From Methanobacteriota archaeon (lineage in GTDB: Archaea > Thermoplasmatota > Thermoplasmata > SG8-5 > DAIRED01), in contig JAZDNO010000014.1 of the NCBI GenBank assembly GCA_043799545.1, positions 1 through 64,000 of the forward strand: a DNA stretch of 64,000 nucleotides. The letters are read 5' to 3'. Numbering within the stretch: the stretch's first letter is position 1; every line of letters starts with the position of its first letter. The translations under genes were made by a program, and so were the position numbers. A model generated the notes under the pieces. That model did no database searches and had not been told where the DNA came from. It saw only the letters and a list, made by a program, of their open reading frames with translations. This document shows positions 656 through 62,928 of this stretch, piece by piece.

Positions 656-1797
656 CGCTTCAGCTTTGCCGCTACTGCGTTTGCCATCTCCGAGGTCTTG
701 GTAGCCCCGCCCATGTCGTAAGTGCGGAAATTGCCTTCCTTGACAATGGCCGCCACCGCATGCTCGATCTCGCGGGCCGCATCAGTCAGCCTGGAGTCGT
801 GCTTCTGCTCCCCGAGCCAGTCGAGCATCATTTTGCCGGCTTGTATCGAGGCGATGGGGTTGACCTTGTCCATGTTGACGTACTTGGGGGCAGAGCCGTG
901 AGTCGGCTCGAAGACAGCGTAGTTCGCGCCGATGTTCCCCGAGGCTCCGAATCCCAGTCCGCCGACCATCTGGACGCAGAGGTCGGAGATGATGTCGCCG
1001 TAGAGGTTCGGCGCCACGAGCACGTCGTAGTCGTGCGGGTTCTTCAGGGCCCACATGCAGAAGGCGTCGATGTTCGCATGGTCGAAAGCTATGCCCGGGT
1101 ATTCCGGGGCCATCTTCTTCGCTGTCTCCAGGAACAACCCGTCGGTCGCCCTCACCACGTTGGCCTTGTGGACGCACGTGACCTTCTTCCTGTTGAACTT
1201 CTTGGCGTAGTCGAAAGCTGCGCGGATGATGCGCTCCGAGCCCTTCTTGGTGTTTATCTTCGCGGAAATCGCGTACTCGTCCGGCTTGAGCCCCTTGAAG
1301 GGAGCGAAGTTTTTCGAGTTCTTGGCCAGGACATCGGCGACCTCCTGAGGCACCGGCGAGAATTCGACGCCCGCGTACAGGTCCTCGGTGTTCTCCCTGA
1401 AAACGACCAGGGCTATGCCCTCCTTGTAGTTCAGGGGGTTTCCGGGATAGCCCTTGACCGGCCTGAGACAGACGTAGAGGTCGAGGAGCTGGCGCATCCT
1501 CACGATGGGGCTGCGGTAGGCCATGCCCTTGCCCTGGAGCGATGGGACGAGCTCCTTCTCCGCTTCCTTCGCCGGCTTCGACGTTATTGCGCCGAAGAAC
1601 GCTGCGTCCGTGGTCTTCATAAGGTCTATCGTGCGCTGCGGGAAGGCGTCCCCTTCCTTGCACCAGAACTCCCAGCCTATGTCGCCGTGGATGTACTCCG
1701 CATCCAGCGCGACAGCGTCCAAGACGACCCTAGTCGCATTCGAAACGTCCACTCCCACCCCGTCGCCGGGGAGCCACGCAATCTTGTATTTGGCCAA
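652..1797 (-). CDS. Isocitrate/isopropylmalate dehydrogenase family protein
   Basis: Motifs LPGDGVG, FRENTEDLY, HKANV, NLYGDIISDL, EPTHGSAPK, NPIASI. TTG start with an AGGAGG RBS. Confidence 0.93.
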   Translation of the reverse strand: MAKYKIAWLPGDGVGVDVSNATRVVLDAVALDAEYIHGDIGWEFWCKEGDAFPQRTIDLMKTTDAAFFGAITSKPAKEAEKELVPSLQGKGMAYRSPIVRMRQLLDLYVCLRPVKGYPGNPLNYKEGIALVVFRENTEDLYAGVEFSPVPQEVADVLAKNSKNFAPFKGLKPDEYAISAKINTKKGSERIIRAAFDYAKKFNRKKVTCVHKANVVRATDGLFLETAKKMAPEYPGIAFDHANIDAFCMWALKNPHDYDVLVAPNLYGDIISDLCVQMVGGLGFGASGNIGANYAVFEPTHGSAPKYVNMDKVNPIASIQAGKMMLDWLGEQKHDSRLTDAAREIEHAVAAIVKEGNFRTYDMGGATKTSEMANAVAAKLKR

Positions 1798-1910
1798 AGC
1801 GATTCCTCCTTGAGGTTATGGCAACAATGCGGAAAACGTAGATAAAGGATTTGCCTGCTAGCGCGGAGGAACGGTTATTCCAGGGCGATTCTTTAACGAA
1901 AAAACGCGCA

Positions 1911-21634: not shown

Positions 21635-22645
21635 ATGAACTGCGTCGAGTGCGGGGCGGACACGGAGCCAGGACCGCTGTGCCAGAAATGCCAGCTGGAA
21701 AAGAGGAAGCGCCCCGTGATTCCCGAGTTCGTTGACCTCACTGTCTGCGGGGGATGCGGCGCAACCCTTTCTGGAGGTACGTGGAGAGAGGTCGAACTCG
21801 AGGACGCCGCGGCGGCAGTAATCGCCACGGGGCTGGAGAAGAAGGTCGACCTCGCCGGAGTGAAGGTCGAGCTGGAGGAGGAGGCCAGCAACATCTACTT
21901 CGCCAAGGTGCTGGTCCGCAGCCGAGCCGGCGGAGCCGTTCAGCGTGACGAGCTCTCGTGCAGGCTGAGGCTTCAGGTCGGCACATGCGAAACGTGCGGA
22001 AGGCTCTCCGGCAACTACTTCGAGTGCATCATCCAGATAAGGGCGGACGGGCGCCTGCCAAGCGAGGACGAAGTGGAGGAGTGCCGCTCTTATGTGGAGA
22101 AACGGATAGACGCCGCCCGCTCCGGCGACCGCACCGTTTTCTTGAGCAAGGCCGAGGAGGTTAAGGGCGGTTTGGATATGTACCTCAGCTCCAACCAGCT
22201 CGGCCAGGGGATAGCGCGGGACTTGGCCGACAGGCGCGGGGCGCAGTACTCGGCTTCGAACGAGCTGTTCGGCCAGAAGGACGGGCGGGAGATATTCCGC
22301 ATGACTTTCCTGGTGCGCCTGCCGTCGTACTGGCAGGGTTCATTTGCAGTGCTTGGCGAGAGAATCGTGCAGGTCCACAACATCGGGCCCAAGCGCACCG
22401 CGCTGCGCTACCTGGACACGTGGGAGGATGTGAGTCTCACGAACAAGGACCTCGCGGGCACCCGGGTTCTTGGAGGAGGCGAGATGGTGCGGGAGGCGGT
22501 GGTGCTAGCCGAGACGGAAACGGAGGTCCAGCTCCTCGACCCCGACACGAACAAGGTCGTGGACGTGGTGAAGCCGCGCGGGTGGAGGCTCCAAGGGGAG
22601 GCGGCGAAGTTCGTGAGGCACGACGAGGGTTTCTATCTGGTATAA
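21635..22645 (+). CDS. NMD3-related ribosome export/maturation protein
   Basis: CVECG...LCQKC...CGGCG...TCETCGRLSGNYFECIIQIRA, LFGQKDGREIFRMTFLVRLP. Confidence 0.9.
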   Translation: MNCVECGADTEPGPLCQKCQLEKRKRPVIPEFVDLTVCGGCGATLSGGTWREVELEDAAAAVIATGLEKKVDLAGVKVELEEEASNIYFAKVLVRSRAGGAVQRDELSCRLRLQVGTCETCGRLSGNYFECIIQIRADGRLPSEDEVEECRSYVEKRIDAARSGDRTVFLSKAEEVKGGLDMYLSSNQLGQGIARDLADRRGAQYSASNELFGQKDGREIFRMTFLVRLPSYWQGSFAVLGERIVQVHNIGPKRTALRYLDTWEDVSLTNKDLAGTRVLGGGEMVREAVVLAETETEVQLLDPDTNKVVDVVKPRGWRLQGEAAKFVRHDEGFYLV

Positions 22646-22707
22646 AGTCTCAAAGTTTATTATCATCACGCAAATAATTTTATATTTGATACCTTATCCG
22701 AACTAAC

Positions 22708-25347: not shown

Positions 25348-25348
25348 T

Positions 25349-26455
25349 CTACCCTTTCCTCGTCACCAGCGTCAGCACGTCCTGGTCCATCAGCACGTGG
25401 TTCAGCCCGACCGTCTGCCCCGGGAACTTCGAGCTGGGGCCCCAGACGTTGGCGTAGCGGAACTTGCGCTTGAAGTCGCGGTGCAGCGTGTCGCATATCA
25501 TCCCGACTGTCGAGCCTTCCTTCACAACCAGGGGGTCTTTCATGTCCGCGTCCCTGCCCTGCGGCTTCATGTAGATGCTCATGAACTTGAGCCTCTGGAA
25601 CAATTCTTCCTTGAGCTCCTCGAGGCCGATGTCCTTGTCCGCGGAGATGGGAATCACATGCCACTTGGACAAGCGCTTCTCCAGGTGGTCCAGATACTCG
25701 GCGCCCACGAGGTCGACCTTGTTGATGGCGACCAGCGCCGGCAGGTATATCCTGTTCCCCGCCAGATAATCTATCAGCTCCTCCTCGCTTATGTCCTGGC
25801 GGAATACGACGTCGGCGCTCACGAGGTTGAACTCGTTGAGGATGGCTTTGGCTCCGTCCTCGTCGAGCTTCGTCAGCTTCACCGTGCTGTTGACGGTTAT
25901 CCCGCCACGGTCCTTCTTGGCGATGGCAATGTCCGGTGGCCTGGTGTTCAACCGTACGCCGACCTGATATAGCTCCTCCACGAGGACGTCGATGTTCGTC
26001 TCGAAGACGTCCCCCATGAGCAGGACCATGTCCAGCGAGCGCACGACAGACAAAACTTCCCGTCCCCGGCCCTTGCCCTTCGACGCGCCTTTGATGAGCC
26101 CTGGCAAGTCCAATATCTGTATCTTCGCCCCCCGGTACTCCATGAGCCCCGGCACCACGGTCAGGGTCGTGAACTGGTAAGCGGCGACCTCGCTCTTCGC
26201 GTCCGTGATGTGGTTCAAGAGGGTGCTCTTGCCCACGCTCGGAAAGCCGACGAGTCCGATGGAGGCGTTGCCCGTCTTCTTCACTCCGTAGGAGAGCCCA
26301 GTGGAGCCACCGCTGGTCTTCCGCTTTTCGGCCAGGTCCTTCAGGCGCGAAATCTTTGCCTTAAGGAGGCCGAGGTGGTGGGAAGTTGCCTTGTTCTTCT
26401 GCGTGTTGAGGATTTCCTCCTCAATCGCCTTTATCTGCTCCTCGGGAGTCGGCAT
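25349..26455 (-). CDS. DRG/OBG-family GTPase with TGS domain
   Basis: MPTPEEQIKAIEEE, KNKATSHHLG, GFPSVGKST, YQFTTLT, DLPGLI, NKVD. True start at 26455. Confidence 0.96.
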   Translation of the reverse strand: MPTPEEQIKAIEEEILNTQKNKATSHHLGLLKAKISRLKDLAEKRKTSGGSTGLSYGVKKTGNASIGLVGFPSVGKSTLLNHITDAKSEVAAYQFTTLTVVPGLMEYRGAKIQILDLPGLIKGASKGKGRGREVLSVVRSLDMVLLMGDVFETNIDVLVEELYQVGVRLNTRPPDIAIAKKDRGGITVNSTVKLTKLDEDGAKAILNEFNLVSADVVFRQDISEEELIDYLAGNRIYLPALVAINKVDLVGAEYLDHLEKRLSKWHVIPISADKDIGLEELKEELFQRLKFMSIYMKPQGRDADMKDPLVVKEGSTVGMICDTLHRDFKRKFRYANVWGPSSKFPGQTVGLNHVLMDQDVLTLVTRKG

Positions 26456-29922: not shown

Positions 29923-30007
29923 TAGCGAGCATTAAAACATTTCCAGACTTTGCATTCCTATTCGATTAGAGGATAATTGATAAATACCGGCACACTTATT
30001 TCCACCC

Positions 30008-33000
30008 GTGGTGTGGGCGATGAAGAAATTTGCATCCGGTTGGTTGTGCGTAGTTGTTATCCTGAGCTCATCGTGGGTGGCACTGGATTTGGGGTTAAAG
30101 GTTAAAGCTGATGGATACGGTGACTATCCGCCGCCATTGGCAGGGGATTGGCATATCAACACCGATACCTACGTCGGTAATGAAACAATCATTCTAGACG
30201 GCAATCTTTGGGTTGAATCTGGCTCGACATTGACATTTTACAATGCGAACCTGAGAATGGACAATACGTTCAACGGCGAGCACAACATCCTTGTGAATGG
30301 TACTTTCAATATAAACAATTCGATGATAACGAGCCATGATGGCGTCAACAGATATCTATTTGAATTTCAGGGTTTCAGCGATGGATTGTTTGAAAAAGCC
30401 AACATCAGCTACTGCGGATACGACAACGACCACCGAGGATTCACGGTGTCCGTACCAGACCTTGTCGTGAAGAATTCTACTTTTGACAGGGGATACTTCG
30501 GTGTGACACTTCAAACTGATGGTCCGGAATTCTATAACGTGTCCATCACCAATACGGAAGGCAACGGCATGGTATTTTACGGCCCGAACAGCGTTTTCCA
30601 GGATTCTATCATACGCAATTGCACCAACGTGGGCCTGCAAATAGGCTTTAGCGATGCCACAATCACGAACGTCACGATCGAGGATTGCTGGCTTAGCAAC
30701 GTCGCCGCTGCTAGCGGCAATGTGTTGTTGGTCAATTCGACATTGAGCAATGCCACTCTGTACTCGGTGCTCCTATCGACCGGTGCCCACCTCACATACT
30801 TGAACACTACAGATACAAATAACGGATATTACTTTGACGCTGGAACCAGCATGACAAAGAAATGGTTCCTGAACGCCAAGGTGGTGAACGAATCCGGAAA
30901 TCCAGTCGTGGGAGCCACGGTACGTGTCAGGGACAACGAAAACGGGACTTACGATGCCAACTTCACAACGGATGCAACAGGTTGGGCGAGATGGATCGTG
31001 GTCAACGAGTCCTGGGAGAACGAGACAAACGCAATCATCTACACACCACATCAGATTTCGGTTTCCAATGCCACACTGTCTAAAGAGTCCATCCCCATGC
31101 AGATCATGAACCGCAGCAAAAATTTGGTAATCGATTTGGATTCTGCCCTCACTATCCATCTTCCTATCCGTATAAACTCGGACGCGGACTTCGATGCGGC
31201 GCATGGCGTCGTCAACGAGGCGACTGGCGACGGCTCAGCTGGAAACCCGTGGATCATCGAGAACTACGACATCAACGGCACTGGATACGGATACTGCATA
31301 TATGTCGGGAACACCACTGATTATTTCGTCGTGAGAAATTGCAATTTGCACGAGTCGGGTGGAGTATCATCTTGGCCATATTATACTGGATCTGGTATCT
31401 TGGTAAATAACATACGAAATGGTGTATTATTTAACAACACATTGGCCGATAATAATAATGGCATTCATATATTCGGTTCAAATACCAATCTGATTCAAAA
31501 TAATGGAATCAATGATAACCACAATGGAATTAATGTGGAATTTTCTGCAGGTAATAGCATTCGAGACAATGTGGTTGAGAACAACGATTATGGTATCATA
31601 TTATACCATTCTACCTACAATACTTTGGCTAATAATTCGATGATTAAGGATGGAATATTCATTCGAAGCGGTGATATCGAACATTGGAACACACATAACA
31701 TCGATAACACAAATACCGTGGATGGCCGCCCAGTTTATTATCTTAAAAATGTAACGTCGGGGAGCATACCGTCCGATGCCGGGCAAGTCATATTGGCCAA
31801 CTGTTCCGGCATCAGTGTAAGCAATCTCAGTCTCCAATATGCCGACGCTGGGATTATGATTGGCTATTCAGATAACATCACAGTAAGAAATAACATAATT
31901 GTCGGCATCAATTGGTATTGTGACGACAGCGGAATCTTAATGGATAATACTGAGAATGTTAGCGTGGTCAACAACACGATATCTATGTATTCCTATGGAA
32001 TAACTCTTGATAGTTCAGAGTATAACGCACTAGATAGAAACACAATTATCAGTTGCATGGATGGCATTGTTATCCGAGAGGGATATAATCACAATATTTC
32101 GAACAACTCATTATTGTCTTGTTATCAAGGCATTTTCACATATCCTGGCTGCCGATCAAACATGATCTTTTCAAATCAAATTACAAGTAATGGATATGGA
32201 ATACGGATATGGCAGGGTAACAATAACTCCATTGCGAATAATGATTTTGACCAAAATAACTATGGAATATACCTATCATTTTCATGGGATATCTGGGCGG
32301 GCAGCAACAATACGATATATCATAACAACTTCATCAGCAGCTTTACATATCACGCAGTAGATTCTACATACAACGATTGGAACTTGTCCTACCCGATTGG
32401 CGGTAACTATTGGAGCGATTATACTGGCGTCGATTTAAATGACACACCAGCGCAGAATGTTCCCCCACCAGACGGCATCGGCGACACGCCGTACACGAGC
32501 ATCGACAGCACGACTGGAGCCCAAGATAACTACCCGCTGATGCATCCAATAGGTTATCCGATTGTCATTTCCACTCTGCCACCATCGGGAGGAATCAACA
32601 TTTCAACCGGAATGTCAGTCACCGTTATTTTCAGCCAGAGCCTGAACACTTCGGTGACGCCGGTATTGACGCAAACGGCCGGCAGCCCCGTCACCTACGC
32701 CTTCCAGGGTTGGAGCCAGACAAACGTCGCCAACGACACGGCCACGTGGACGCATGGCAATTGGGCGCAGAACAACCTGGTTACAATCGTGGTTTCGAAT
32801 TTCATGGATTTGAGCGGCGGCGCTGGGTTCAATCACGCATTTTCATTCAGGACCGCCGACACCATCAGCCCCGTCTCCAGCGTCAACACAATCGCTGGCT
32901 ACTGGAAAACGACGTCTCCCATGACAATCGGGGCGTCGGCGAGCGACGGAACCGGCAGCGGCGTTGCCTATGTGGAACTATGGAGCCGGGCATCGAGCGA

Positions 33001-52666: not shown

Positions 52667-52851
52667 TTTTCGCCTCCATGTACGATATGTTTTAGGGCAT
52701 ACTTATCCTTATGTAACTAAATATCAATACAGAATGTCACAAATCATGGGCTTTTTCATAACACTAAATAGCAGCAATCCGGAACGTGTGTTCCACGACT
52801 CCATCCCCGCCCGCAACAATTTTTATAGGGAATGTCCCGCATCCCCCCCCG

Positions 52852-55827
52852 ATGGCACAACCAGGGCTCAATGGGAACGGCGACCGCGAGCCCCAGCCGA
52901 GCGCGCACCACGACCTGATGAAAATCAGGGTCAGCGAGATACTTCTCGTGTCCAGCCTCTACGACGCCTTCATCCTCGAGGAGGACGGCCTGCTGTCCGA
53001 ACAGATATCTGGCGAATACCAGGAGTTCGCCCTCTCTTCCCCGCCGCGCGTGAGCCGGGTCTCGGCGGCGAAGGAGGCGCTCGTCGAGATGGGCGCGAGG
53101 CGCTTCGACATGGTAATCACGATGGCGAGGCTCTCGGACATGAGCCCGACCGAGTTCGGGGAGCGGGCCAAGGCGCTTCAGCCAGGCATCCGCGTCATCA
53201 TGCTCATCACCGAGCCGGGGGACCTACCGCACTACCACATCCCGGGGAAGGGCGGGCCGATAGACAAGGTGTTCTATTGGACCGGGGACGCCGGCCTGTT
53301 CCTAGCCATAACCAAGTACGTGGAGGACATGGTCAACGCCGAGGCGGACGTGGCGAGCGGCTTTGTGAAGGTCATAATCGTAGTCGAGGACTCTCCCAGA
53401 TTCTATTCCGTGTTCCTTCCCATACTATACACCGAGATAATGCGCCAGAAGAACGCCCTCCTCTCGGAAGGGCTGAACGAGGCCGACAAGACCCTGCGCA
53501 GGCGCTCGAGGCCGAAGATACTGCTGGCGGAAACGTTCGAGGAGGGCAAGGCGCTGCTGGAAAAGTACCGGGGGAACGTCCTCGGCCTCATCACGGACGT
53601 GGACTATCCCATGGAAGGCAGGAAAACTGAAGGGGCTGGGCTCTTCCTGATTGAGATATCGGAGCCAGGGCTCCCCACGATTGTTCAGTCCTCAAAGCCG
53701 GAAAACCGCGCGAAGGCCGAAAGGCTCGGCGCCAAGTTCCTCGACAAGAACTCGGACACGCTGCTGGAGGACCTCAGGACCTTCTTCAAGGAGCGCCTCG
53801 GCTTCGGAGATTTCGTGTTCAGGATGAAGGACGGGACCGAGGTGGCCAGAGCGTACGACGTCAGGGACCTGACTGAAATCGCGGAAAGGGTTCCGGCCGA
53901 GTCCCTGAAGATGCACGGCGCCGCGAACCAGTTTTCAAACTGGCTGCTGGCAAGGGGCGAGGTCACCCTGGCGGCGAAGCTGAGGCCGAAGAAGGTCTCC
54001 GATTTCGCAAGCGACGAGGAGCTGAGGCACTTCCTGGTGGACGCGTTGCTGGAGGCGAGGCGGGAGAAGCTCCTGGGTGTGGTGATAGACTTCTCCCAGC
54101 AGACGTTCGAGTTCCGCGAGACGTTCACGCGCTTCGGAGGGGGCTCGCTCGGCGGGAAGGGACGCGGGCTGGCGTTCCTCGCGTCGCTGATACACAAGAG
54201 CGGCGTCCGCGCCGCGAGGCCGGACTGGCGGATAAGGATACCGGACACCCTCGTGATCGGCACCGAAGAGTTCGACAGGTTCGTCTCGACGAACGGCCTG
54301 GGTTCACTGAGGAAGACGAGGACGAAGGACCCGGAGATCGCGGCCAAGTTCCTCGCCGGCGCGATGTCCGGCGAGCTGGAATCCGCGCTCAGGACATACG
54401 CCGCAAACGTCGATTGCCCTGTGGCCGTGAGGTCATCCAGCCTCCTCGAGGACTCCCAGAACCAGCCCTTCGCGGGGATATACTCGACCTACCTGCTGCC
54501 GAACAACCATCCCGACAGGGAGGTCCGCCTGGCCCAGCTCACGTCGGCCGTGAAGCTCGTCTACGCGTCGGCTTTCTTCAAGGCTGCGAGGGCGTACATC
54601 CAGACGACCATCGGCACAGTCGAGGAGGAGCGGATGGGGGTGGTCATCCAGAAGCTCGTCGGCAACTCCCACGGAAGCAGGTTCTACCCCCTGTTCTCCG
54701 GAGTCGCCCAATCATACAACTTTTATCCAGTGCCGCCGATGTCCAAGGACGACGGCATAGCCAGCGTCGCCCTCGGCCTGGGGCGCACGGTCGTCGAGGG
54801 CGGGAAATCGCTGTCCTTCTCTCCGAAGCATCCGGCTGCAATACCGGCGCACTCGTCCCCCGAGGAGATACTGGCGAATTCCCAGGATAAGTTCTTCGCC
54901 ATAGACATGAGCCGGACAGAGTTCGACCTCACGCTGGGCGACGACGCGACCCTGACGAGGCTGGACATCTCCGACGCCGAGGGCGACGGTGTGTTGGACC
55001 AGCTCGCCAGCACATACGACACCGCGGACCACCGCTTCAGGGACGGCGTGGGGTACGACGGGCCGCGCGCCATAACGTTCGCGGGCGTGCTGAGGCACGG
55101 CCACATGCCTCTCGGGGAGATTCTGTCAGAGCTGCTGGACATGAGCAAGGACGGGATGGGCAGGCCGGTCGAGATGGAGTTCGCCGTCGCTGAAGACCCC
55201 GAGGGTTTTTTGGAGTTCCACCTCCTCCAGATTCGGCCGATGGTCTCGATGAAGGAGCGCTCGCAGGTCGTTATCGACGCCTCCGCAGAGGGCGACCGGG
55301 TGCTGGTGGCAAGCAACAGGGCGCTCGGCAACGGTGTCCTCGACGGCATCTCCGACGTCGTGTACGTCCCGCCGTCGCTGTTCGACAGGACGAAGACGAA
55401 GGAGATTGCGGACGAGATCGGGCGCCTGAACGAGTCCATGGCGGGGAAGCCTTACGTCCTCATCGGGCCGGGGCGCTGGGGCACGCGGGACAGGTTCCTC
55501 GGGATACCAGTCGAATGGGACCAGATATCGAATGCCAGGGCGATAGTCGAGGTGGGGCTGGAAGATTTCAGGATAGACCCGTCGCACGGCTCGCACTTCT
55601 TCCACAACATCACGGCTCTCGGCATACCTTATTTCAGCGTCCCCTACGGCTCGGAGCTGTCCAGGGTCGACTGGGGGTGGCTGGAGGGGCAGCCGGGAAC
55701 GAAGGGCCGCGGTTTCGCGCGACACGCGAGGCTGGCCGGGCCGCTCGTGGTCAAGGTGGACGGGCGCAGCGGAACGGGGGTCGTGCTGAAGCCAGCCGGG
55801 AAATCGCAGGGGGCGGCCGCGCATTAG
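52852..55827 (+). CDS. Receiver-like + PEP/pyruvate-binding (PPDK_N ATP-grasp) + swivel-His protein, paralog 1
   Basis: EILLVSS..D, VIIVVEDS, GLITDVD, DUF5752-like FSNWL, GGKGRGL, VRSSSLLED..FAGIY, MGVVIQ, EMEFA, LQIRP, GPGRWG, SHGSHFF. Confidence 0.85.
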   Translation: MAQPGLNGNGDREPQPSAHHDLMKIRVSEILLVSSLYDAFILEEDGLLSEQISGEYQEFALSSPPRVSRVSAAKEALVEMGARRFDMVITMARLSDMSPTEFGERAKALQPGIRVIMLITEPGDLPHYHIPGKGGPIDKVFYWTGDAGLFLAITKYVEDMVNAEADVASGFVKVIIVVEDSPRFYSVFLPILYTEIMRQKNALLSEGLNEADKTLRRRSRPKILLAETFEEGKALLEKYRGNVLGLITDVDYPMEGRKTEGAGLFLIEISEPGLPTIVQSSKPENRAKAERLGAKFLDKNSDTLLEDLRTFFKERLGFGDFVFRMKDGTEVARAYDVRDLTEIAERVPAESLKMHGAANQFSNWLLARGEVTLAAKLRPKKVSDFASDEELRHFLVDALLEARREKLLGVVIDFSQQTFEFRETFTRFGGGSLGGKGRGLAFLASLIHKSGVRAARPDWRIRIPDTLVIGTEEFDRFVSTNGLGSLRKTRTKDPEIAAKFLAGAMSGELESALRTYAANVDCPVAVRSSSLLEDSQNQPFAGIYSTYLLPNNHPDREVRLAQLTSAVKLVYASAFFKAARAYIQTTIGTVEEERMGVVIQKLVGNSHGSRFYPLFSGVAQSYNFYPVPPMSKDDGIASVALGLGRTVVEGGKSLSFSPKHPAAIPAHSSPEEILANSQDKFFAIDMSRTEFDLTLGDDATLTRLDISDAEGDGVLDQLASTYDTADHRFRDGVGYDGPRAITFAGVLRHGHMPLGEILSELLDMSKDGMGRPVEMEFAVAEDPEGFLEFHLLQIRPMVSMKERSQVVIDASAEGDRVLVASNRALGNGVLDGISDVVYVPPSLFDRTKTKEIADEIGRLNESMAGKPYVLIGPGRWGTRDRFLGIPVEWDQISNARAIVEVGLEDFRIDPSHGSHFFHNITALGIPYFSVPYGSELSRVDWGWLEGQPGTKGRGFARHARLAGPLVVKVDGRSGTGVVLKPAGKSQGAAAH

Positions 55828-56662
55828 GTGCTTCTTCGTCTCCGATTTGCACGGCGAGGCCAGCAAGTACGCCGCGCTCTTCAGGGTTGCGACGGCCGAG
55901 CGCCCGGACGCGGTGCTTCTGGGGGGAGACCTGCTACGACATGGGCACGGCGCGGGTGCGGAGGCGTTTCTTCGGGACGAGCTGATTGAGCCCGCCAGGA
56001 GGCTCGCCGGCAGCGGAACGAAGCTATTCGTCATAATGGGGAACGACGACCCGCGCGTGCACGAGCGCGCCCTGCTGGAGGCGGACGCCGGGGGCGTCCT
56101 GAGCTACGTGCCGGAGAGGGCGGTCAGGCTCGGCGACCTCTACATTGCTGGCTATCCGTACGTGCCTCCGTCGCCCTTCCAGCTCAAGGACTGGGAGCGC
56201 TACGACGTCTCGCGGTTCGTGGACCCAGGATGCGTTTCGCCGGAGGAGGGGCGGCGCAGCGTCCCCGCCGACCCGGACGCCGTCAGGAGGGAGACAATCA
56301 GGGACGATCTCGAAAGGCTGGCCGCGCTTTCGCCCCCGGAAAGGACCGTCTACCTCTTCCACGTTCCGCCGTACCGCACGAAGCTGGACCGCGCGGCCCT
56401 TGACGGCGTCTCGTACGACCACGCGCCGCTGGACGTGCACATAGGCTCCATCGCCGTCCGCGAATTCATCGAAAAAAGGTCGCCTTTCCTCACGCTGCAC
56501 GGCCACGTACACGAGTCCCCAAGGCTCGCGGGGGCCTGGCGCGACATTGTCGGGCGCACGTGCGCTTTCTCGGCGGCGCACGACGGGCCCGAGCTTGCGC
56601 TCGTCAGGTTCGACACGGAAAAACTCGACGGGGCGACGAGGGAATTGCATCCTACTGGATGA
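55823..56662 (+). CDS. Calcineurin-like metallophosphoesterase (probable ATT start)
   Basis: Complete motif set DLHG, GGDLL, MGNDD, FHVPP, HGHVHE. The first Asp lies upstream of the ORF-track TTG (55847). Confidence 0.85.
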   Translation: MRCFFVSDLHGEASKYAALFRVATAERPDAVLLGGDLLRHGHGAGAEAFLRDELIEPARRLAGSGTKLFVIMGNDDPRVHERALLEADAGGVLSYVPERAVRLGDLYIAGYPYVPPSPFQLKDWERYDVSRFVDPGCVSPEEGRRSVPADPDAVRRETIRDDLERLAALSPPERTVYLFHVPPYRTKLDRAALDGVSYDHAPLDVHIGSIAVREFIEKRSPFLTLHGHVHESPRLAGAWRDIVGRTCAFSAAHDGPELALVRFDTEKLDGATRELHPTG

Positions 56663-56703: not shown

Positions 56704-59700
56704 TCACTCGTACTCGTCTTTTCTGTGCCTGGGGAGCTGCAGCTCCTTCGCCTTGCCATAGACGGAATCGATGTGGGTCGCCCACGAGCCCTTCTCCTGG
56801 ATGTCCTTGTCTGTCACGACGTGCACATCCAGGAGCCCGTCGCACTTGTAGCCCGTCCTGACGTAGTTCTCTGCGGCAAGTTTTACGCTCCAGCCCTTCA
56901 GCCAGGCAAGCAAATCCTCCTTCTGGTCCTCCGTGCCTCGGTGATGGACTATCAGGTCTATGTCGCTTCCCAAACCGGCGGTGTATTCCTTGGAGCTGCC
57001 CACGACGTACAGCGCCACGACCCCGTACAATTGCGGGTCCAGCGCATCTGCAATCTCCTTGGCCTTCCCCATCCTCCAGGCGGAGTGGTTCGGCGGCACG
57101 GTGAAGGCCAGCGCCTCGCCGGCGTCCCCGTCCATTATTATCGAGAGCGTGCCGCCCTCCGAGATGTCGGCGACGCGGACGAGCTTGACCACGTCCGCAA
57201 TCTTCTCGCATCCTGTGCAGAACTCCGACAGGTGGTTCTCGGATATCTCCAAAAGCTGCTCGTTGAATACTATACCCAGTTCGTCGGGGTACAGGGGCAG
57301 GTACTGGATGCCCGCCTCGACGAGGTCCTGGAAGAAATGGGTCCCGAACGACAGCTCGGGGACGTAGCCCCCCTTGCGCCTGGCGACCTCGATGAGGAGC
57401 GCCGTGTTGTTCAAGTCGCGGTATTGCACGGGCACGCCCAGCTTGATGTCCCCCCGGCTTCCCCACCGGCCTGGCCCCATGAGAATGAACCTGCGCTTTG
57501 GCAACCGCTGGTTCAGGTCCCCTACGGCGTGGGCTACAGCAATCATGTCCTCGCGCTTCTCCAGGGATTCGTATCCCATCGGATTCACGTACACTATCCA
57601 ATCGATGTTGTTGAGGCTTCCCGTGGTGACGTAGCGCCTGGCAGAGAATATCTGCCTGGGCATGGGAATGTCCTTCGGCACCGGGATTCTCTCGACCCCG
57701 GAGGCCTGGCTCTGCGGCCTGCACTGCAGTATGTGGAGGCTCTTCCCGTCGTGCGCGAATTCCACGTCCACCGGCACGCCGAGCCTCTCCTTGAGCACTT
57801 CCAGCACCTTGCGTATCTGCTTCACGAACTGCGTTCTCTCAATCACACCGTTGAAAGTGACTACGAGCTCGTCGTTCTCCGCGTCGAGCATCATGCCGGA
57901 CGGAGGGATGAGCTGGCCGTCCTTGTGCACCGACGCGATTTTCGTCAGCAGCGGGTAGTCCTTGCCGTGCATGGCGAACACGTCGGCCACATCCACGGTC
58001 TCTATCCTCAGGGTCTCGAGGTTGATCACGTCCATGCGCCTCTGGGAATAGAGGACCGCCTCGTCGACGAGTGTGTTGACCCGGAGCTCTGGCCTGTGGG
58101 GCGACAGGAGCATCGGGTAGTCGTCCGAGACCCGGTCGACCGCCCGCGTGCCCAGTCCGACCACCAGCCTCAGGATGCCGTCCTCGCGTCTAATCCTGTG
58201 GGACCAGCGGAACTCGTTGTTGCTGAAGCCCACTCCTGCGAACGCCGGGAAATAGTATGGCCCTACCCTCGTTCCCACGACCTCCTGGATCAGGACCCCC
58301 ATGTCCTCCATGAGGTCGAGCATCCCGCGCTCGCGCCTGTACTCGATGGCGTTCGGCCCGAACGTGGACGCCCAGACTTCCGCGATGGCGTCCATGAGGG
58401 CGTTCAGGCGCTCCTGCTCCGTGCCGATGTTGGGCAGGAATAGGCTCTTGTACTTTCCAGAGAATGCAGCCCCGAAACTGTCTTCCAGGTGGCTCGAGGA
58501 GCGTACGATGATGGGCTTGCTGTTGAACTCCCTCAGGACGTCGCGCAATTCGGCGATGGTCTCCACCGGGAACGCTGCGTTCTTGAACACCTGCTCGAGG
58601 AACGGCTGCTCCTGGCGTATCTCGTTGGGCTCCATGTACTTGATTTCCGAAACCTCGTCCAGCGCGTTGTAGTGGATGAACTCCCTCATGGTGTCCGAGC
58701 TGACGTACTTGGTGTTGGCGAACGAGATTCCGGACAAATCCGGGTCGGCCTCGATTTCCTTCCTCAGGACCTTCTGGGCCAGGATTATTCCGGAGGCCTT
58801 TCCGCCGAGCTTGCCAACACCCTGGGTTGGCCCGATGGTCTTGTCCAGTATCTCCACGAAATCCTCAACCATGATGAATCTCTTGGCGACGTTTATGTAT
58901 TCCAGCTTCTCGGTGAAGAACCTGCGGATGAGGTTGGTCCTGATGCTGACGTCGTTCTCGGGCGAGAGTATCCTCTCAGCCTCTGGAATCTTCCAGAAGT
59001 GGTTGAGGGCGTCCTTGACCTCCTTCAGGGTCGAACCCATCTTCTCCGCCGTCTGAAGAAGGGTCTTGGCATTGTTCTGTCTTAGCCAGAGGACCAACAG
59101 CTCCATTATCTCCTGCGAGCTCAGGTTCTGCTGGGCTATCTCGAAGACCCCCTCCTGGAATTTCTCCAGCTCCTTGATGTCGCTCCTCGGGTTCGGCATG
59201 TTGATGCCGCACCATTCCTCGTCCGCCTTCGGCCCGTTAATCGGGCACAGCGACCCCACGAGCGAGTCGAAGCTCACGCTCGTCTTACGGGACAGGTGGT
59301 ACATCATCTTCCTGGACACTCTGAGAAGGGTGCCCGGGTCCGTCTTGATTAGCATGTCGATTATGACTTGCCAGTCAGTCTTCGGGACCGGCGTGGGCTT
59401 GTGCGCGGCGTGATGGAACTCCGTTTTCGTTCCTGCCATGATCTCCTTCAGCTGCTTCTGGTAGCGGTTGAGCTCATCGTCGCTCCGGAATTTCTCCACG
59501 AACTTGCACAATCGCTCCGCGATGACCTTCATCAGCTTTCTCTCTTCTTTCAAGAATGGGTCATGGCCCTCGAATTTCACCTTGTCCGAATAGAACACCT
59601 CTATCTTGCCGACTTTTGTCTCCTCCGTGCAAAGGGCGTACGTTAGGACGTATGGGCCCTCCCTGAAGTTCTGGCTCTTGAAAATGTCCCCGTTGACGTG

Positions 59701-59922
59701 AATCCTGGACGATGCAAATTCCGGAAATTGGAACGCTGGCGGAAGGATGTTGACTATGCCCGTCAGCGCGTCCTTGGGCGACAGCCGCTGCAGCTCCATT
59801 ATGTCGGAGATTTCGTAGAGACAGTTTAACTCCTTGAGGCGTTCGTTCAGTTCGTGTGTCTTGCGCTCAAGCTCCTTCCTTTCGAGCTCGCCGCCGCCTT
59901 TCCCGACCTCTGTTCCATCCAT
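56704..59922 (-). CDS. GAF-like + PPDK_N ATP-grasp + swivel-His + C-terminal nucleotidyltransferase protein, paralog 2
   Basis: N-terminal ELNCLYEI...LPPAFQFPE...PFLKEER; GGKASG, VRSSSHLED..FSGKY, LQCRP, GPGRWG, SFGTHFF; C-terminal YVVGSSKEYTAGLGSDIDL (GS..DxD). Confidence 0.85.
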   Translation of the reverse strand: MDGTEVGKGGGELERKELERKTHELNERLKELNCLYEISDIMELQRLSPKDALTGIVNILPPAFQFPEFASSRIHVNGDIFKSQNFREGPYVLTYALCTEETKVGKIEVFYSDKVKFEGHDPFLKEERKLMKVIAERLCKFVEKFRSDDELNRYQKQLKEIMAGTKTEFHHAAHKPTPVPKTDWQVIIDMLIKTDPGTLLRVSRKMMYHLSRKTSVSFDSLVGSLCPINGPKADEEWCGINMPNPRSDIKELEKFQEGVFEIAQQNLSSQEIMELLVLWLRQNNAKTLLQTAEKMGSTLKEVKDALNHFWKIPEAERILSPENDVSIRTNLIRRFFTEKLEYINVAKRFIMVEDFVEILDKTIGPTQGVGKLGGKASGIILAQKVLRKEIEADPDLSGISFANTKYVSSDTMREFIHYNALDEVSEIKYMEPNEIRQEQPFLEQVFKNAAFPVETIAELRDVLREFNSKPIIVRSSSHLEDSFGAAFSGKYKSLFLPNIGTEQERLNALMDAIAEVWASTFGPNAIEYRRERGMLDLMEDMGVLIQEVVGTRVGPYYFPAFAGVGFSNNEFRWSHRIRREDGILRLVVGLGTRAVDRVSDDYPMLLSPHRPELRVNTLVDEAVLYSQRRMDVINLETLRIETVDVADVFAMHGKDYPLLTKIASVHKDGQLIPPSGMMLDAENDELVVTFNGVIERTQFVKQIRKVLEVLKERLGVPVDVEFAHDGKSLHILQCRPQSQASGVERIPVPKDIPMPRQIFSARRYVTTGSLNNIDWIVYVNPMGYESLEKREDMIAVAHAVGDLNQRLPKRRFILMGPGRWGSRGDIKLGVPVQYRDLNNTALLIEVARRKGGYVPELSFGTHFFQDLVEAGIQYLPLYPDELGIVFNEQLLEISENHLSEFCTGCEKIADVVKLVRVADISEGGTLSIIMDGDAGEALAFTVPPNHSAWRMGKAKEIADALDPQLYGVVALYVVGSSKEYTAGLGSDIDLIVHHRGTEDQKEDLLAWLKGWSVKLAAENYVRTGYKCDGLLDVHVVTDKDIQEKGSWATHIDSVYGKAKELQLPRHRKDEYE

Positions 59923-59928
59923 GCCGTC

Positions 59929-62928
59929 TCAGCCCTCGCAGGCCCCGCCTTTCGCTTCGCCAAAGCCAGGCGCCTTCTTAAGGATTGCCCCTCTGCCAGT
60001 CCTGCCGTCTATCCTCACCTGGACAGGCACCGGCGAGCGCGCGTGCCTCACGTCCCCTTCCTCAGCTACAACCGGAAGGTTATTGAGCCAGTTCCAGTCG
60101 AAATCCTCGGCGAAGCGGGGCTTGATTGTGAAGTAGCCCAGCTTCAGGGAGCTCATGTTCTGGAAGAAATGCGAACCCTGGGACGGGTCTATCACCCTTC
60201 CGTCCACGGGCGTCTCGACGATGGTCTTGGAGCCGGCTATGTCGCTCCAGATTATCGGTATCCCCAGCCACGGGTCCGTCGAGCCCCACCGGCCAGGCCC
60301 TATCAGGATGTACGGACGACCCTCGTTCATCAGGGTTTTGTTGATTTTTCTTATACATGGCACGACCTGCTGCGAATTCGCCATCTCGAACGTTTCGGGC
60401 TTGACGTAGACGAAATCGACCATGCCGTCCACGATGCCGTTACCCATGACGCTGTCGCTCTGGCAGAGGGTCTGACTTTTGTCGATATCCCCAAGCTCGA
60501 CCGTGACGAGGTCGCTCTTGGCCACCATGCTCCTGACCTGGAGGAACTTGAATTCATGAGGCTTCTCCCCCGTCCTGTCCAGGGTGATGGCGAACTCAAT
60601 CTCGACCGGGCATCCCAGGGAGACCTCGCCCATCCTGAGCATCAGCCCCACGATTCTCGCCAGCGGGAACGCATCCCCCTGGAGCATCGGACCGAAGTCC
60701 AGCACGCGCGCCCCGTCCCTTCCAGTGCCCGGATAGAGCCTGTCGCCCTGCGGGTCGTAGGTGGAGACCAGCTCCTCGACGACTCCGTCACGCTCGGCGT
60801 CCTCCAGCTCAAGGTTGACGAGTGTGGCCGCGTCGTCCAAGCCAGTCCTGCCGACTTGGGAGCCCAGTGCAACTCCGTAGAATACCTTCTGAGACTGCTT
60901 CATCAGCTCGCGCACCGAGCCGTAGTGCGGAACATTGGGATGAAGGGGGCAGAAGCGGAAGGAGACTCCCCCGTCGACGATGGTCTTGCCGAGGCCCAGG
61001 GCCACGTTCGCCATGCCGTCCGTGTTTTCGCACGAGCCGAACGGCCAGTAGTCGTAGGAGCGGGCGACTCCGGATATGTCGGGGTAGAACGCGTCGCCGT
61101 GCTTCGCCCCCGCGACCTCCTGGATGACGACCGCCATGCGTTCGTCCCCGATTTTGCTCGGCGTGGCCTGGATGTAAGACCTGGCCTTCTCGAAGTACGT
61201 CGAGGCGAAAACGAACTTCACGGCGTCGCAGAGATGTTGGAAGCGGTTGTCCGTCTCGTTGGAGCTGTTGGGCAGCATCAGCGATTCATAGACCCCCGCG
61301 AAGGGCTGGAACAGCGCGTCCTCGAGAAGGCTGGACGAGCGGACGCCTATCGGGGTGCGCACGTCCTCCACGAACGAGCGGAGGTCGCCCAGCACCGTGA
61401 TGGGCAGGTCCGCCTCCAAGAAAGCCGCTGCGATGCGGTCGTCGGGCATCGAAGCCAGGTCAAGCTCGAACAGGCGGTTGCTGGCCACGAACTGCTCGAA
61501 GACACCCGTGCAAAGCACAACGGTCCGCGGAATCGAAATCCTCACGCCCGGAAATGTTTCATCGGTGACGTGTGCGGAGATTATCTTGTCCATGAACGCC
61601 AGCCCACGGGCCTTTCCGCCCAGCGCGCCCCCGCCTAGCCTGCTGAAGCGCACGAAGGGACCGTATGATTCGCGCGAGTAGTTCGCTATCGTGCCCACGT
61701 GGCTTTGGGTCTTGTGCTTGGAGATGGCCTCAAGCACGGAGCGCCTCATCGCCTCGCTGTCTTTGCCCGACTCCGAGAACCGCGCAAACTCATCCGCGAG
61801 CTCGAACTCGGTTCTTCCAACTAGCCACGAAACAATCGTCCCGTTCCGCAGGTACCGCTCAAGAACGTCCTTGGGGGCCGTCCAGATTGCCCGTTCGAGG
61901 CTCCAGACGTCTGAGGCCCGGGCTATTTGCCTTCCATCCGCGGCAACGAGGTTGAGCTCCGCCGGGCCGAGCGCCTCCCTGACGAACGCGGCGACGTCGT
62001 GGACGAGCCTGGGCGAGTCGATGTCCGCGGTTCTCGCATTCGCTTGAGGTGGGCCGCAGGGTCCGCGGCTATTGACCAGCGAGAGTATCGGCAGACCCTT
62101 CGCCGATTCCTCCAGCGCATCCCTCAGGGTCGTTTTCCCATTGTGGGGCTCTGTTTCGTCCAGCACCGCGCATAGTATCTTCCCGGCATGGCGCTCAGCC
62201 AGCTTCCGGGCTGCGTCGGGGCTGTCGGCCAGCAGCACCTTCGGCCTCCTCCTGACCCTCGCCATCTTCTGCGTGTGCGATATGTCGCCCTGCAGCAGGG
62301 CGTCGGTGTGCTCCCAAATCTCGTCGTAGATTGATGGAAGAATCCCTGAGAGCCTGGACAAGCTGGGTTCGTAGAGCAAGATTCCACGGACACCGAACGC
62401 TGTCGAATCCCGCTCGTAATTCTCGGCGTCCTCCACCGCTTGGACGATTGCCAGGAATACCTTCCCGTCGCCGTGCCAGGTGAAGATGCGGTCTATATTA
62501 TCGCACTCACCGGAGGCGGCCATTCGCGCCAGCTCGGGAGTGTTGTTGGCGAGGTAGACTATCCTCAGCCTCGGCGACTTTTCCCTCGCCCTCCTGGCGA
62601 GGTCCAGCAAGCCAAGGTCCCCGGGCGGGTTGAAGACCACGAGCAGGTCCACCCAGCCCCCGTCGAGAGAGGCGAGCGCCCGCTCCCCGCTCGCCACGTG
62701 CCTCGTCATAGGCACGTAGCCCAGCTCCCTCTGGCCGTAGACCTTGCGGAAAAGCTCGGAGAGCCTGCCCTCCTCCTCCAGCAGGAAGTAATCATATGCG
62801 GTCGAGACCAGGAGGATGTTCCGGACGCACAGCTGCCCCCATGGCTCGGCCGATGGGAGGCGTTCGCCGGCGGACTTGCCAGTAATCTGGCTAAGCGCCT
62901 CGTCTATCTCCCTGTCGCGGCCCGTCAT
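59929..62928 (-). CDS. Receiver-like + PPDK_N ATP-grasp + swivel-His protein, paralog 3
   Basis: NILLVSTAYD, GGKARGL, VRSSSLLED..FAGVY, MAVVIQE, EIEFA, LQVR, GPGRWG, SQGSHFF. Collinear with paralog 1. Confidence 0.85.
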   Translation of the reverse strand: MTGRDREIDEALSQITGKSAGERLPSAEPWGQLCVRNILLVSTAYDYFLLEEEGRLSELFRKVYGQRELGYVPMTRHVASGERALASLDGGWVDLLVVFNPPGDLGLLDLARRAREKSPRLRIVYLANNTPELARMAASGECDNIDRIFTWHGDGKVFLAIVQAVEDAENYERDSTAFGVRGILLYEPSLSRLSGILPSIYDEIWEHTDALLQGDISHTQKMARVRRRPKVLLADSPDAARKLAERHAGKILCAVLDETEPHNGKTTLRDALEESAKGLPILSLVNSRGPCGPPQANARTADIDSPRLVHDVAAFVREALGPAELNLVAADGRQIARASDVWSLERAIWTAPKDVLERYLRNGTIVSWLVGRTEFELADEFARFSESGKDSEAMRRSVLEAISKHKTQSHVGTIANYSRESYGPFVRFSRLGGGALGGKARGLAFMDKIISAHVTDETFPGVRISIPRTVVLCTGVFEQFVASNRLFELDLASMPDDRIAAAFLEADLPITVLGDLRSFVEDVRTPIGVRSSSLLEDALFQPFAGVYESLMLPNSSNETDNRFQHLCDAVKFVFASTYFEKARSYIQATPSKIGDERMAVVIQEVAGAKHGDAFYPDISGVARSYDYWPFGSCENTDGMANVALGLGKTIVDGGVSFRFCPLHPNVPHYGSVRELMKQSQKVFYGVALGSQVGRTGLDDAATLVNLELEDAERDGVVEELVSTYDPQGDRLYPGTGRDGARVLDFGPMLQGDAFPLARIVGLMLRMGEVSLGCPVEIEFAITLDRTGEKPHEFKFLQVRSMVAKSDLVTVELGDIDKSQTLCQSDSVMGNGIVDGMVDFVYVKPETFEMANSQQVVPCIRKINKTLMNEGRPYILIGPGRWGSTDPWLGIPIIWSDIAGSKTIVETPVDGRVIDPSQGSHFFQNMSSLKLGYFTIKPRFAEDFDWNWLNNLPVVAEEGDVRHARSPVPVQVRIDGRTGRGAILKKAPGFGEAKGGACEG

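What the first reader, a model, noticed from the sequence alone, without database searches (positions are those of the whole stretch)
56704..59922. Paralog 2 combines a GAF-like input, dikinase core and a Pol-beta-type nucleotidyltransferase
Seen: the N-terminal ~120 aa (ELNCLYEI..LPPAFQFPE..GKIEVFY..PFLKEER) resemble the GAF-like input of sensor kinases. The last ~110 aa carry G-S-x9-S-D-I-D plus a later Asp (LLDVH). Known: Pol-beta-superfamily NTases such as GlnD and GlnE regulate nitrogen assimilation by uridylylating PII or adenylylating glutamine synthetase. Inference: one polypeptide may both phosphorylate and nucleotidylate, with GDH as an obvious candidate target. That would be a GlnE-like control of GDH, which I have not seen described.
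Basis: partly seen in the sequence, partly recalled or inferred. Interest (0 to 1): 0.7.

Follow-up and report, generated by a model that had tools for sequence, protein, structure and literature searches.

The report
GDH-linked sensor, ATP-grasp and nucleotidyltransferase enzyme
This 1072-residue archaeal protein joins a GAF-like sensor, the ATP-binding half of PEP synthase, a histidine-bearing domain and a small nucleotidyltransferase; in hundreds of archaeal and bacterial species it sits directly behind a dedicated glutamate dehydrogenase gene, so it probably belongs to an unstudied control system for that enzyme.

Summary
ORF 56704-59922 (-) has five modules:
- a GAF-like fold at aa ~20-156. 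The same module heads many histidine kinases.
- an all-helical region of unknown fold.
- a near-complete PPDK_N ATP-grasp (E 1e-49).
- a Pfam-less domain with invariant GPGRWGS and GTH862FFQ motifs.
- an MNT-type minimal nucleotidyltransferase at aa ~943-1065. G975-S976, D987/D989 and D1032 are conserved in at least 97% of 70 full-length homologs from archaea and many bacterial phyla.

It is not a full dikinase. It has no PEP/pyruvate barrel, and PF00391 does not recognise the His domain.

The GDH link is strong:
- GDH lies upstream on the same strand in 63 of 65 species loci.
- In 101 Thermoplasmatota genomes, a separate GDH clade (at least 68% identity, next best 53%) occurs almost only where this protein does.
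- Natural fusions join the upstream paralog to this protein.
- The phosphoesterase follows the paralog, not the NTase protein.

No target or chemistry is shown. The NTase is MNT-like, not GlnE/GlnD-like.

I found no paper on this family. VadK is the closest functional precedent. This scan reached the same reading on other DNA at least six times.

Verdict: a real, conserved, uncharacterised system.

The parts
56704..59922 (-). Target gene (P0001, 1072 aa): GAF-like, helical, PPDK_N ATP-grasp, His-bearing swivelling-type domain, MNT-type NTase
59443..59865 (-). aa 20-160: GAF-like sensor module. Conserved in at least 97% of 70 homologs: E27 R28 K30 E31 C34 Y36 and F123 L124 E127
   Evidence: AF2 model. 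VIA Z 12.8-8.2 to GAF domains. Homologous module in histidine kinases. Conserved residues
58828..59397 (-). aa 176-365: all-helical domain of unknown fold and function
   Evidence: DSSP of the model. No Pfam or PDB sequence match. Fold barely tested, because GAF rows fill the lists
57700..58812 (-). aa 371-741: PPDK_N ATP-grasp. Conserved: K375, R474-S477, E480 D481, E721, Q733, R735
   Evidence: PF01326 E 1.4e-49. Conserved residues
57091..57687 (-). aa 746-944: Pfam-less domain shared by all three paralogs, with GPGRWGSRGD (816-825) and SFGTHFFQDLVE (858-869). Candidate phospho-His carrier
   Evidence: Conserved residues. Weak fold match to the PPDK phosphoryl carrier domain 2fm4 (Z 5.2, 117 aligned, rmsd 4.2). 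Not matched by PF00391
57337..57339 (-). Codon of His862, the only invariant His of that domain and the candidate phospho-acceptor
   Evidence: Its role is inferred
56728..57090 (-). aa 945-1065: minimal (MNT-type) Pol-beta-superfamily nucleotidyltransferase
   Evidence: PF01909 26.4 bits, in 38 of 38 members. VIA Z 8.2 (8xeh_E), 7.5 (1wot), 7.1 (2rff). Profile hits to NTases only
56956..57000 (-). NTase motif G975-S976-x9-S986-D987-I-D989. The third carboxylate, D1032, is at 56827-56829
59929..62928 (-). Upstream paralog P0002 (999 aa): receiver-like N-terminus, PPDK_N, same His-bearing domain, no NTase. Its stop lies 6 nt before the target's ATG
   Evidence: Fused to the target type in P0155, P0156 and P0170
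62988..64000 (-). Dedicated glutamate dehydrogenase (428 aa). It runs off the window to contig position 64274
55823..56662 (+). Convergent metallophosphoesterase (279 aa if it starts at ATT 55823)
   Evidence: It follows the paralog
52786..55827 (+). Third paralog P0003 (weak receiver match, PPDK_N, His-bearing domain), co-directional with the phosphoesterase
   Evidence: Same arrangement in L001, L005 and L014

Best explanation
P0001 is an intact member of a widespread, uncharacterised family of five-module signalling enzymes. It is co-transcribed behind a dedicated GDH and a partner paralog.

Most likely mechanism:
1. The N-terminal GAF-like module senses a metabolite or state (inferred).
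2. The ATP-grasp uses ATP to load the adjacent swivelling-type domain on His862, as PEP synthase, rifampin phosphotransferase and VadK do (inferred).
3. The C-terminal MNT-type NTase transfers a nucleotidyl group, probably AMP, to a protein acceptor (inferred).
4. The output is covalent or contact control of the dedicated GDH, working together with the P0002-type paralog.

Shown here: the domain identities, the integrity and conservation of all catalytic motifs, the operon order, the GDH co-occurrence, and the natural fusion of paralog and target.

Inferred: every chemical step and the identity of the acceptor.
For: - Domains.
- 166 positions are at least 97% conserved across 70 proteins from archaea and many bacterial phyla. 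They include K375, R474, E480/D481, E721, Q733, H862, G975/S976, D987/D989 and D1032.
- 586 species genomes encode a relative of aa 745-1072.
- GDH lies upstream on the same strand in 14 of 14 archaeal and 49 of 51 bacterial loci.
- In 101 Thermoplasmatota genomes, 12 carry the protein and 12 carry a GDH of at least 68% identity, with 11 in common. Both exceptions lie at contig ends. The next-best GDH is at most 53% identical.
- This GDH falls below every NCBIfam equivalog cut-off (463 bits against 750), while the second GDH passes its cut-off.
- The P0002 stop and the P0001 start are 6 nt apart.
- Fusions of paralog plus target (1639-1654 aa) lie behind GDH. P0155 is seen on contigs from an NCBI assembly and a separate sequencing run.
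- Sensor domains (GAF-like here, receiver-like in the paralogs) point to regulation rather than bulk metabolism.
- MNT relatives AMPylate proteins, by the titles of 7ae9 and 7aer.
- VadK shows that a barrel-less PPDK relative can autophosphorylate on His and regulate metabolic enzymes (PMC13400623).
Against: - There is no biochemical or genetic data for any member. Four literature searches found nothing.
- The His-bearing domain is not recognised by PF00391 or by hhalign against 17 canonical mobile domains (Prob 0.3). Its fold match is weak (Z 5.2), so the His relay is unproven.
- A minimal NTase normally needs a second domain or a partner for substrate binding, and none is identified.
- Gene linkage to GDH would equally fit a role in sensing or using a GDH substrate.
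- Loci with only GDH and this protein carry no phosphoesterase, so a simple writer/eraser scheme is incomplete.
Confidence: 0.55

Rival explanations
1. Internal control. The NTase modifies the dikinase-like proteins themselves, either the target's own His-bearing domain or that of the paralog (for example near T861-H862). This would resemble the PSRP/PDRP proteins that modify the Thr next to the catalytic His of PEP synthase and PPDK. GDH would then be controlled only by the His-phosphoryl relay or by binding, as with VadK.
For: - T861 and H862 are both conserved in at least 97% of homologs.
- The swivelling-type domain and the NTase model as one compact unit (pTM 0.81).
- Paralog and target are fused in some species.
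- VadK acts by binding metabolic enzymes (PMC13400623).
- The PSRP/PDRP analogy rests on my own knowledge, not on a tool result.
Against: No evidence for self-modification. The family keeps strict linkage to GDH even where no paralog is nearby (10 bacterial loci), so the NTase-bearing protein and GDH suffice as a unit.
Confidence: 0.2
2. Small-molecule chemistry. The ATP-grasp/His module phosphorylates a metabolite, as rifampin phosphotransferase, glucan-water dikinase and PigC do. The NTase nucleotidylates a metabolite or makes a nucleotide signal. GDH supplies or removes the substrate (glutamate or 2-oxoglutarate).
For: - Characterised barrel-less PPDK_N enzymes mostly act on small molecules. 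NCBIfam's weak hits include the rifamycin phosphotransferase, PigC and RedH models.
- Aminoglycoside and lincosamide NTases are among the fold matches.
- Glutamine synthetase and GltD-like genes lie near the cluster in several archaeal loci.
Against: - Sensor and receiver-like input domains on every paralog.
- No recognisable substrate-binding third domain.
- The best NTase matches are protein-modifying MNTs.
- A dedicated, separately evolving GDH clade fits a protein partner better than a shared metabolite.
Confidence: 0.15
3. The NTase is a degenerate or purely structural appendage such as a dimerisation module, or a relic of an MNT antitoxin or defence gene. It has no catalytic role.
For: On the whole protein, PF01909 barely passes its cut-off (21.7 against 21 bits). 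There is one weak PADLOC hit (E 0.007).
Against: - All three carboxylates and the GS motif are conserved across archaea and bacteria.
- PF01909 matches 38 of 38 members, with best E 8.7e-11.
- No HEPN partner is seen in any neighbourhood examined.
- The context is housekeeping, not a defence island.
Confidence: 0.04

Closest known systems
VadK (Rv1127c) of Mycobacterium tuberculosis (EMBO Rep 2026, PMC13400623)
   Same: A PPDK relative that has lost the PEP/pyruvate barrel. It keeps the ATP-binding domain and a His domain, autophosphorylates on His422 with ATP and Mg, binds metabolic enzymes and tunes their flux.
   Different: VadK is about 50 kDa, with a canonical PPDK His domain and no sensor or NTase. 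It is linked to the methylcitrate cycle, not GDH.
PEP synthase, pyruvate phosphate dikinase and rifampin phosphotransferase (PPDK_N His-relay dikinases)
   Same: PPDK_N ATP-grasp with conserved nucleotide and metal residues, followed by a swivelling-type domain with an invariant His at the start of a helix.
   Different: No PF00391 match. No PF02896 barrel and no rifampin-binding domain. It has extra GAF-like, helical and NTase modules.
MNT minimal nucleotidyltransferases of HEPN-MNT toxin-antitoxin pairs (8xeh, 7ae2, 7bxo, 1wot, 2rff)
   Same: Best fold and profile matches (Z 8.2-7.1). Same G-S...D-x-D...D catalytic set. MNTs AMPylate a protein partner.
   Different: Here the NTase is the C-terminal domain of a 1072-aa enzyme. 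There is no HEPN partner, and the context is a GDH operon, not a toxin-antitoxin pair.
GlnE (GS adenylyltransferase) and GlnD (PII uridylyltransferase)
   Same: Pol-beta-superfamily NTases that control a nitrogen-assimilation enzyme by nucleotidylation.
   Different: No GlnE or GlnD family signature (PF03710 in 1 of 40 members, E 0.14). No HD or ACT domains and no second, removing NTase domain. The linkage is to GDH, not to GS or PII.
Selenoprotein O AMPylation of mammalian glutamate dehydrogenase (Nat Commun 2025, PMC12375108)
   Same: Shows that GDH activity can be switched off by AMPylation (Glud1 Y464).
   Different: SelO has a pseudokinase fold. The target site lies in the antenna, which hexameric prokaryotic GDHs of this size lack (my own knowledge).

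Membership tests
Pol-beta-superfamily minimal NTase (PF01909 NTP_transf_2, MNT type) | hG[GS] loop followed by [DE]h[DE]h | tested here: met
   G975-S976-x9-S-D987-I-D989 is present in all 118 full-length homologs and conserved in at least 97% of 70 archaeal and bacterial proteins
Pol-beta-superfamily minimal NTase (PF01909 NTP_transf_2, MNT type) | Third carboxylate on a later beta-strand | tested here: met
   D1032 is conserved and lies in model strand 287-292, which is aa 1031-1036
Pol-beta-superfamily minimal NTase (PF01909 NTP_transf_2, MNT type) | Profile match above the curated cut-off, and the NTase fold | tested here: met
   26.4 bits against a cut-off of 21, and 38 of 38 members match. 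VIA Z 8.2 (rmsd 3.1, 102 aligned) to 8xeh_E, 7.5 to 1wot, 7.1 to 2rff
Pol-beta-superfamily minimal NTase (PF01909 NTP_transf_2, MNT type) | Nucleotidyl-transfer activity | not testable with these tools
   Needs an enzyme assay
HEPN-MNT toxin-antitoxin pair | Adjacent HEPN toxin partner | tested here: not met
   No HEPN family appears among the neighbours in the window or in L001-L003
GlnE / GlnD regulatory nucleotidyltransferases | GlnE (PF03710) or GlnD signature domains, with HD/ACT domains or a second NTase | tested here: not met
   PF03710 matches 1 of 40 members at E 0.14. No HD or ACT domain is found
PEP synthase / PPDK dikinases | PPDK_N ATP-grasp nucleotide-binding domain | tested here: met
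   PF01326 E 1.4e-49, profile positions 3-313 of 328
PEP synthase / PPDK dikinases | PEP-utilizers mobile phospho-His domain (PF00391, GGxT[SC]H) | tested here: inconclusive
   PF00391 finds only the two canonical enzymes in this genome. hhalign against 17 mobile domains gives Prob 0.3. The fold match to 2fm4 is weak (Z 5.2). An invariant G-T-H862 sits at the start of a helix
PEP synthase / PPDK dikinases | C-terminal PEP/pyruvate-binding TIM barrel (PF02896) | tested here: not met
   No match, and every residue after the His-bearing domain belongs to the NTase
GAF domain | GAF alpha/beta fold | tested here: met
   VIA Z 12.4 to 3cit_B (rmsd 2.2, 123 aligned), 11.2 to 3p01, 10.9 to 4g3k. Nearly all of the top 50 rows are GAF. 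The sheet is reduced to four strands in the model
GAF domain | Match to Pfam GAF profiles (PF01590, PF13185, PF13492) | tested here: not met
   None matches among 38 members, even at E up to 10, so I call it 'GAF-like'
VadK-like regulatory truncated PPDK | ATP-grasp plus His domain without a barrel, autophosphorylation on His, and binding to metabolic enzymes | not tested
   The architecture is analogous. Activity needs experiment

The most novel reading that the evidence does not exclude
One polypeptide, gated by its GAF-like sensor, writes two different covalent marks on a dedicated glutamate dehydrogenase or on its partner paralog. One is a phosphoryl group relayed through His862 by a dikinase-type ATP-grasp. 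The other is an AMP or other NMP added by an MNT-type nucleotidyltransferase. This would be a previously unknown, GlnE-like but mechanistically distinct switch on GDH, present in hundreds of anaerobic bacterial and archaeal species.
Probability: 0.15. Interest if true: 0.85.

Novelty: new variant of a known kind. Interest (0 to 1): 0.66.

Why it matters
GDH sits at the junction of carbon and nitrogen metabolism. In many anaerobic peptide and amino-acid degraders it is the main route of amino-group removal. No dedicated covalent control system for prokaryotic GDH, comparable to GlnE/GlnD for glutamine synthetase, turned up in my searches or is known to me.

This family has at least 586 species genomes and about 1,680 clusters at 50% identity. 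It is strictly tied to its own GDH clade, carries sensor domains and has two intact catalytic modules. It is therefore a concrete, testable candidate for such a system.

It would also extend the new idea that barrel-less PPDK relatives act as regulators (VadK). It would give minimal MNT-type nucleotidyltransferases a role outside toxin-antitoxin pairs.

Tried and rejected
- Complex prediction of GDH (A3) with aa 745-1072 (A1) returned no verdict, with score 0.00 against a mark of 0.32. I count it neither for nor against binding.
- Sequence tests for a canonical phospho-His domain failed. PF00391 over the whole genome found only the two canonical enzymes, and hhalign against 17 mobile domains gave Prob 0.3. 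A rough linear interpolation of the 2fm4 alignment places PPDK His455 near model residue 116-118, which is H862. I treat that only as a hint.
- Pfam and PDB sequence searches of aa 1-370 found nothing. The helical domain at aa 176-365 remains unassigned, because GAF rows fill the fold-search lists.
- Foldseek gave no match with E at or below 1e-3 for either model. The assignments rest on consistent families in the top rows and on VIA Z scores.
- PADLOC gave no meaningful defence-system match, so I rejected a toxin-antitoxin or defence reading.
- Literature searches found no paper on this family. The terms were GDH with pyruvate-binding domain or nucleotidyltransferase, PPDK_N, adenylylation, and 'pyruvate-binding domain-containing protein'.
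- The promoter and terminator scan was at chance level.
- Clade-specific GDH residues were listed: an insertion at 243-248, plus C126, H154, W293 and C361. They do not identify a modification site.
Full report
**Observation**

The ORF at 56704-59922 on the minus strand is open and encodes 1072 residues.
- Pfam finds a near-complete PPDK_N ATP-grasp at aa 371-741 (E 1.4e-49). It also finds NTP_transf_2 at aa 964-1011, at 21.7 bits against a cut-off of 21.
- Scanned alone, the C-terminal part scores 26.4 bits.
- NCBIfam gives only partial, far sub-threshold hits to PEP synthase, rifamycin phosphotransferase and PigC/RedH models, all confined to the ATP-grasp.
- PDB sequence search likewise hits only the ATP-grasp of rifampin phosphotransferase entries.

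**C-terminal nucleotidyltransferase**

- The motif G-S-x9/10-S-D-[ILV]-D is present in all 118 full-length homologs from the first search.
- All 38 family members in alignment A1 match PF01909 (best E 8.7e-11), PF18765 and PF22600.
- A profile of A1 hits only nucleotidyltransferases in the PDB: 2rff, URT1, kanamycin and streptomycin NTases, and MNT.
- An AF2 model of aa 745-1072 (pLDDT 91.2, pTM 0.81) matches minimal NTases over model residues 199-321, which are aa 943-1065. These are MNT antitoxin 8xeh_E (Z 8.2, rmsd 3.1, 102 aligned), 1wot (Z 7.5) and 2rff (Z 7.1). Aminoglycoside NTases, poly(A)/U polymerases and DrrA follow.
- Foldseek gives the same families at probability about 1 but E about 3e-3.
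- The third carboxylate, D1032, sits in a predicted strand.
- The domain is of the MNT/minimal type. A GlnE signature appears in 1 of 40 members, at E 0.14.

**N-terminal sensor**

- No Pfam or PDB sequence match exists.
- The model of aa 1-370 (pLDDT 84.5) gives a GAF-type fold for aa ~20-156. Top matches are 3cit_B at Z 12.4 (rmsd 2.2, 123 aligned), 3p01 at 11.2, 4g3k at 10.9 and NifA GAF at 10.3. Nearly all of the top 50 rows are GAF domains.
- The sheet has only four strands, so 'GAF-like' is the right term.
- The module is homologous at 34-45% identity (E 1e-14 to 1e-35) to N-terminal modules of proteins carrying HisKA, HATPase_c, PAS and receiver domains.
- Residues 176-365 are all-helical and unassigned.

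**The 'dikinase core'**

- The ATP-grasp keeps K375, R474-S477, E480/D481, E721, Q733 and R735 in at least 97% of 70 homologs.
- After it comes a 200-residue domain shared by all three window paralogs, with invariant GPGRWGSRGD and SFGTH862FFQDLVE motifs.
- This domain has no Pfam family. PF00391 does not find it in the genome, and hhalign does not relate it to 17 canonical mobile domains.
- Its fold matches are weak: the PPDK phosphoryl carrier domain 2fm4 (Z 5.2, 117 aligned), Enzyme I, a PA/apical domain and putative cyclases. From my memory of SCOP, these all belong to the swivelling beta/beta/alpha fold.
- G-T-H862 starts a helix that is followed by Gly and a strand, as T-S-H does in PPDK. 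The equivalence is inferred.
- There is no PEP/pyruvate barrel. The protein is therefore dikinase-like, not a demonstrated dikinase.

**Conservation and context**

- The first search returned more than 100 homologs of the same length and Pfam architecture, all from Thermoplasmatota.
- A scan of one genome per species found 586 genomes encoding a relative of aa 745-1072. By record titles, the best 80 include Acidobacteriota/Aminicenantes, Planctomycetota, Ignavibacteria, Bacteroidota, Bacillota (Syntrophomonadaceae), Cloacimonadota, Zixibacteria, Myxococcota, Verrucomicrobiota and Oligosphaera ethanolica DSM 24202.
- The exhaustive representative search counts 1,680 clusters at E 1e-3 or better and 147 at 1e-30 or better. 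These include NTase-less forms of about 770 aa and stand-alone copies of the His-bearing domain of about 200 aa.
- In the window the order is GDH, then P0002, then the target on the minus strand. P0002's stop is 6 nt from the target's ATG. A P0003 and phosphoesterase pair converges on this operon.
- The same order appears in three distant archaeal contigs.
- By tblastn over 83 loci, GDH lies within 3.5 kb upstream on the same strand in 14 of 14 archaeal and 49 of 51 bacterial loci with enough upstream DNA. It is directly adjacent in 10, and has a PPDK_N paralog in between in 52.
- In a sample of 101 Thermoplasmatota genomes, 97 have some GDH, but only 12 have one at least 68% identical to this GDH. 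The next best is 53%. Twelve genomes have the full-length protein, and 11 are in both sets. The two exceptions have the gene at a contig end.
- The linked GDH is a normal hexamer-type GDH by PDB similarity, but it falls below all NCBIfam equivalog cut-offs. The second GDH, 1.1 kb further on, is a standard NADP type.
- The linked clade has its own insertion at aa 243-248 and its own conserved residues.

1. Cluster representatives P0155, P0156 and P0170 (1523-1654 aa) are natural fusions of a P0002-type ATP-grasp plus His-domain half with a complete target-type protein, in the gene order. P0155 occurs on contigs from an NCBI assembly and a separate sequencing run. Both P0155 and P0156 follow a GDH gene. 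This is Rosetta-stone support for the two paralogs acting together.
2. The convergent phosphoesterase accompanies the paralog: 42 of 51 loci with the paralog have it, against 1 of 10 without. Related genomes are not independent, so the p-value is only indicative. The minimal conserved unit is therefore GDH plus the NTase-bearing protein. The phosphoesterase is more likely tied to what the paralog does.

**Mechanism**

The best-supported reading is a ligand-gated, ATP-driven modifier or regulator of the dedicated GDH.
- The sensor and receiver-like input domains argue for regulation.
- MNT relatives AMPylate protein partners (titles of 7ae9 and 7aer).
- VadK shows that a barrel-less PPDK relative autophosphorylates on His and regulates metabolic enzymes by interaction (PMC13400623).
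- AMPylation can inactivate a GDH in mammals (PMC12375108).

None of the chemical steps is shown here. The rivals are NTase action on the dikinase-like proteins themselves, small-molecule chemistry, or a non-catalytic NTase. They are weighted in the Rival explanations section.

**Novelty**

- The domain combination is visible in automatic annotation, for example 'PEP/pyruvate-binding domain-containing protein' and 'nucleotidyltransferase domain-containing protein'.
- I found no study of the family or of its GDH link.
- This scan has reported the same cluster on other genomes at least six times, with the same overall reading. I took the VadK lead from those notes and checked the paper myself.
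- I rate it a new variant of known kinds (regulatory PPDK relatives, protein-modifying NTases). Interest is fairly high because of its breadth and its testability.

Noticed in passing
window 55787-55860: The metallophosphoesterase has no ATG, GTG or TTG before its first metal ligand (D of SDLHG). ATT at 55823 aligns exactly with the Met of two homologs (MKCLFVSDLHG and MNCLFVSDLHG against IRCFFVSDLHG) and gives the homologs' length of 279 aa. This points to either an ATT start or a base error. It overlaps the P0003 stop at 55825-55827.
   Followed up: partly
P0155, P0156, P0170; L118:6001-10965: Natural fusions of 1523-1654 aa join a P0002-type ATP-grasp plus His-domain half to a complete GAF, ATP-grasp and NTase protein, directly behind a GDH gene. 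In L118 a SelO (PF02696) gene lies about 2.4 kb upstream of that GDH (347-1831, minus strand), which may be coincidence.
   Followed up: partly
P0188, P0236, P0260 and Atlas row 4: The GPGRWGS/GTHFFQ domain also exists as stand-alone proteins of about 200-220 aa. One Atlas cluster has 344 members, mostly bacterial, at TM 0.86. NTase-less proteins of about 770 aa also exist.
   Followed up: no
L101:89-1375 (contig positions 62988-64274) and L101:2458-3795: There are two GDH genes in tandem. The cluster-linked one (428 aa) belongs to a separate clade with an insertion at aa 243-248 (CWDQKE) and clade-specific C126, H154, W293 and C361. The second (445 aa) is a standard NADP-GDH. An ORF of 289 aa between them has no Pfam match.
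   Followed up: partly
L002:2649-3986, L016 near 306, L001:17517-18974, L006, L017: Glutamine synthetase genes and genes like the glutamate synthase small subunit (GltD-like, Fer4_20 plus Pyr_redox_2) lie within a few kb of the cluster in several archaeal loci.
   Followed up: no
window 22001-26000 and 30001-32000: These segments have GC 0.40-0.45 in a window that otherwise runs at about 0.60. They are probably acquired islands.
   Followed up: no
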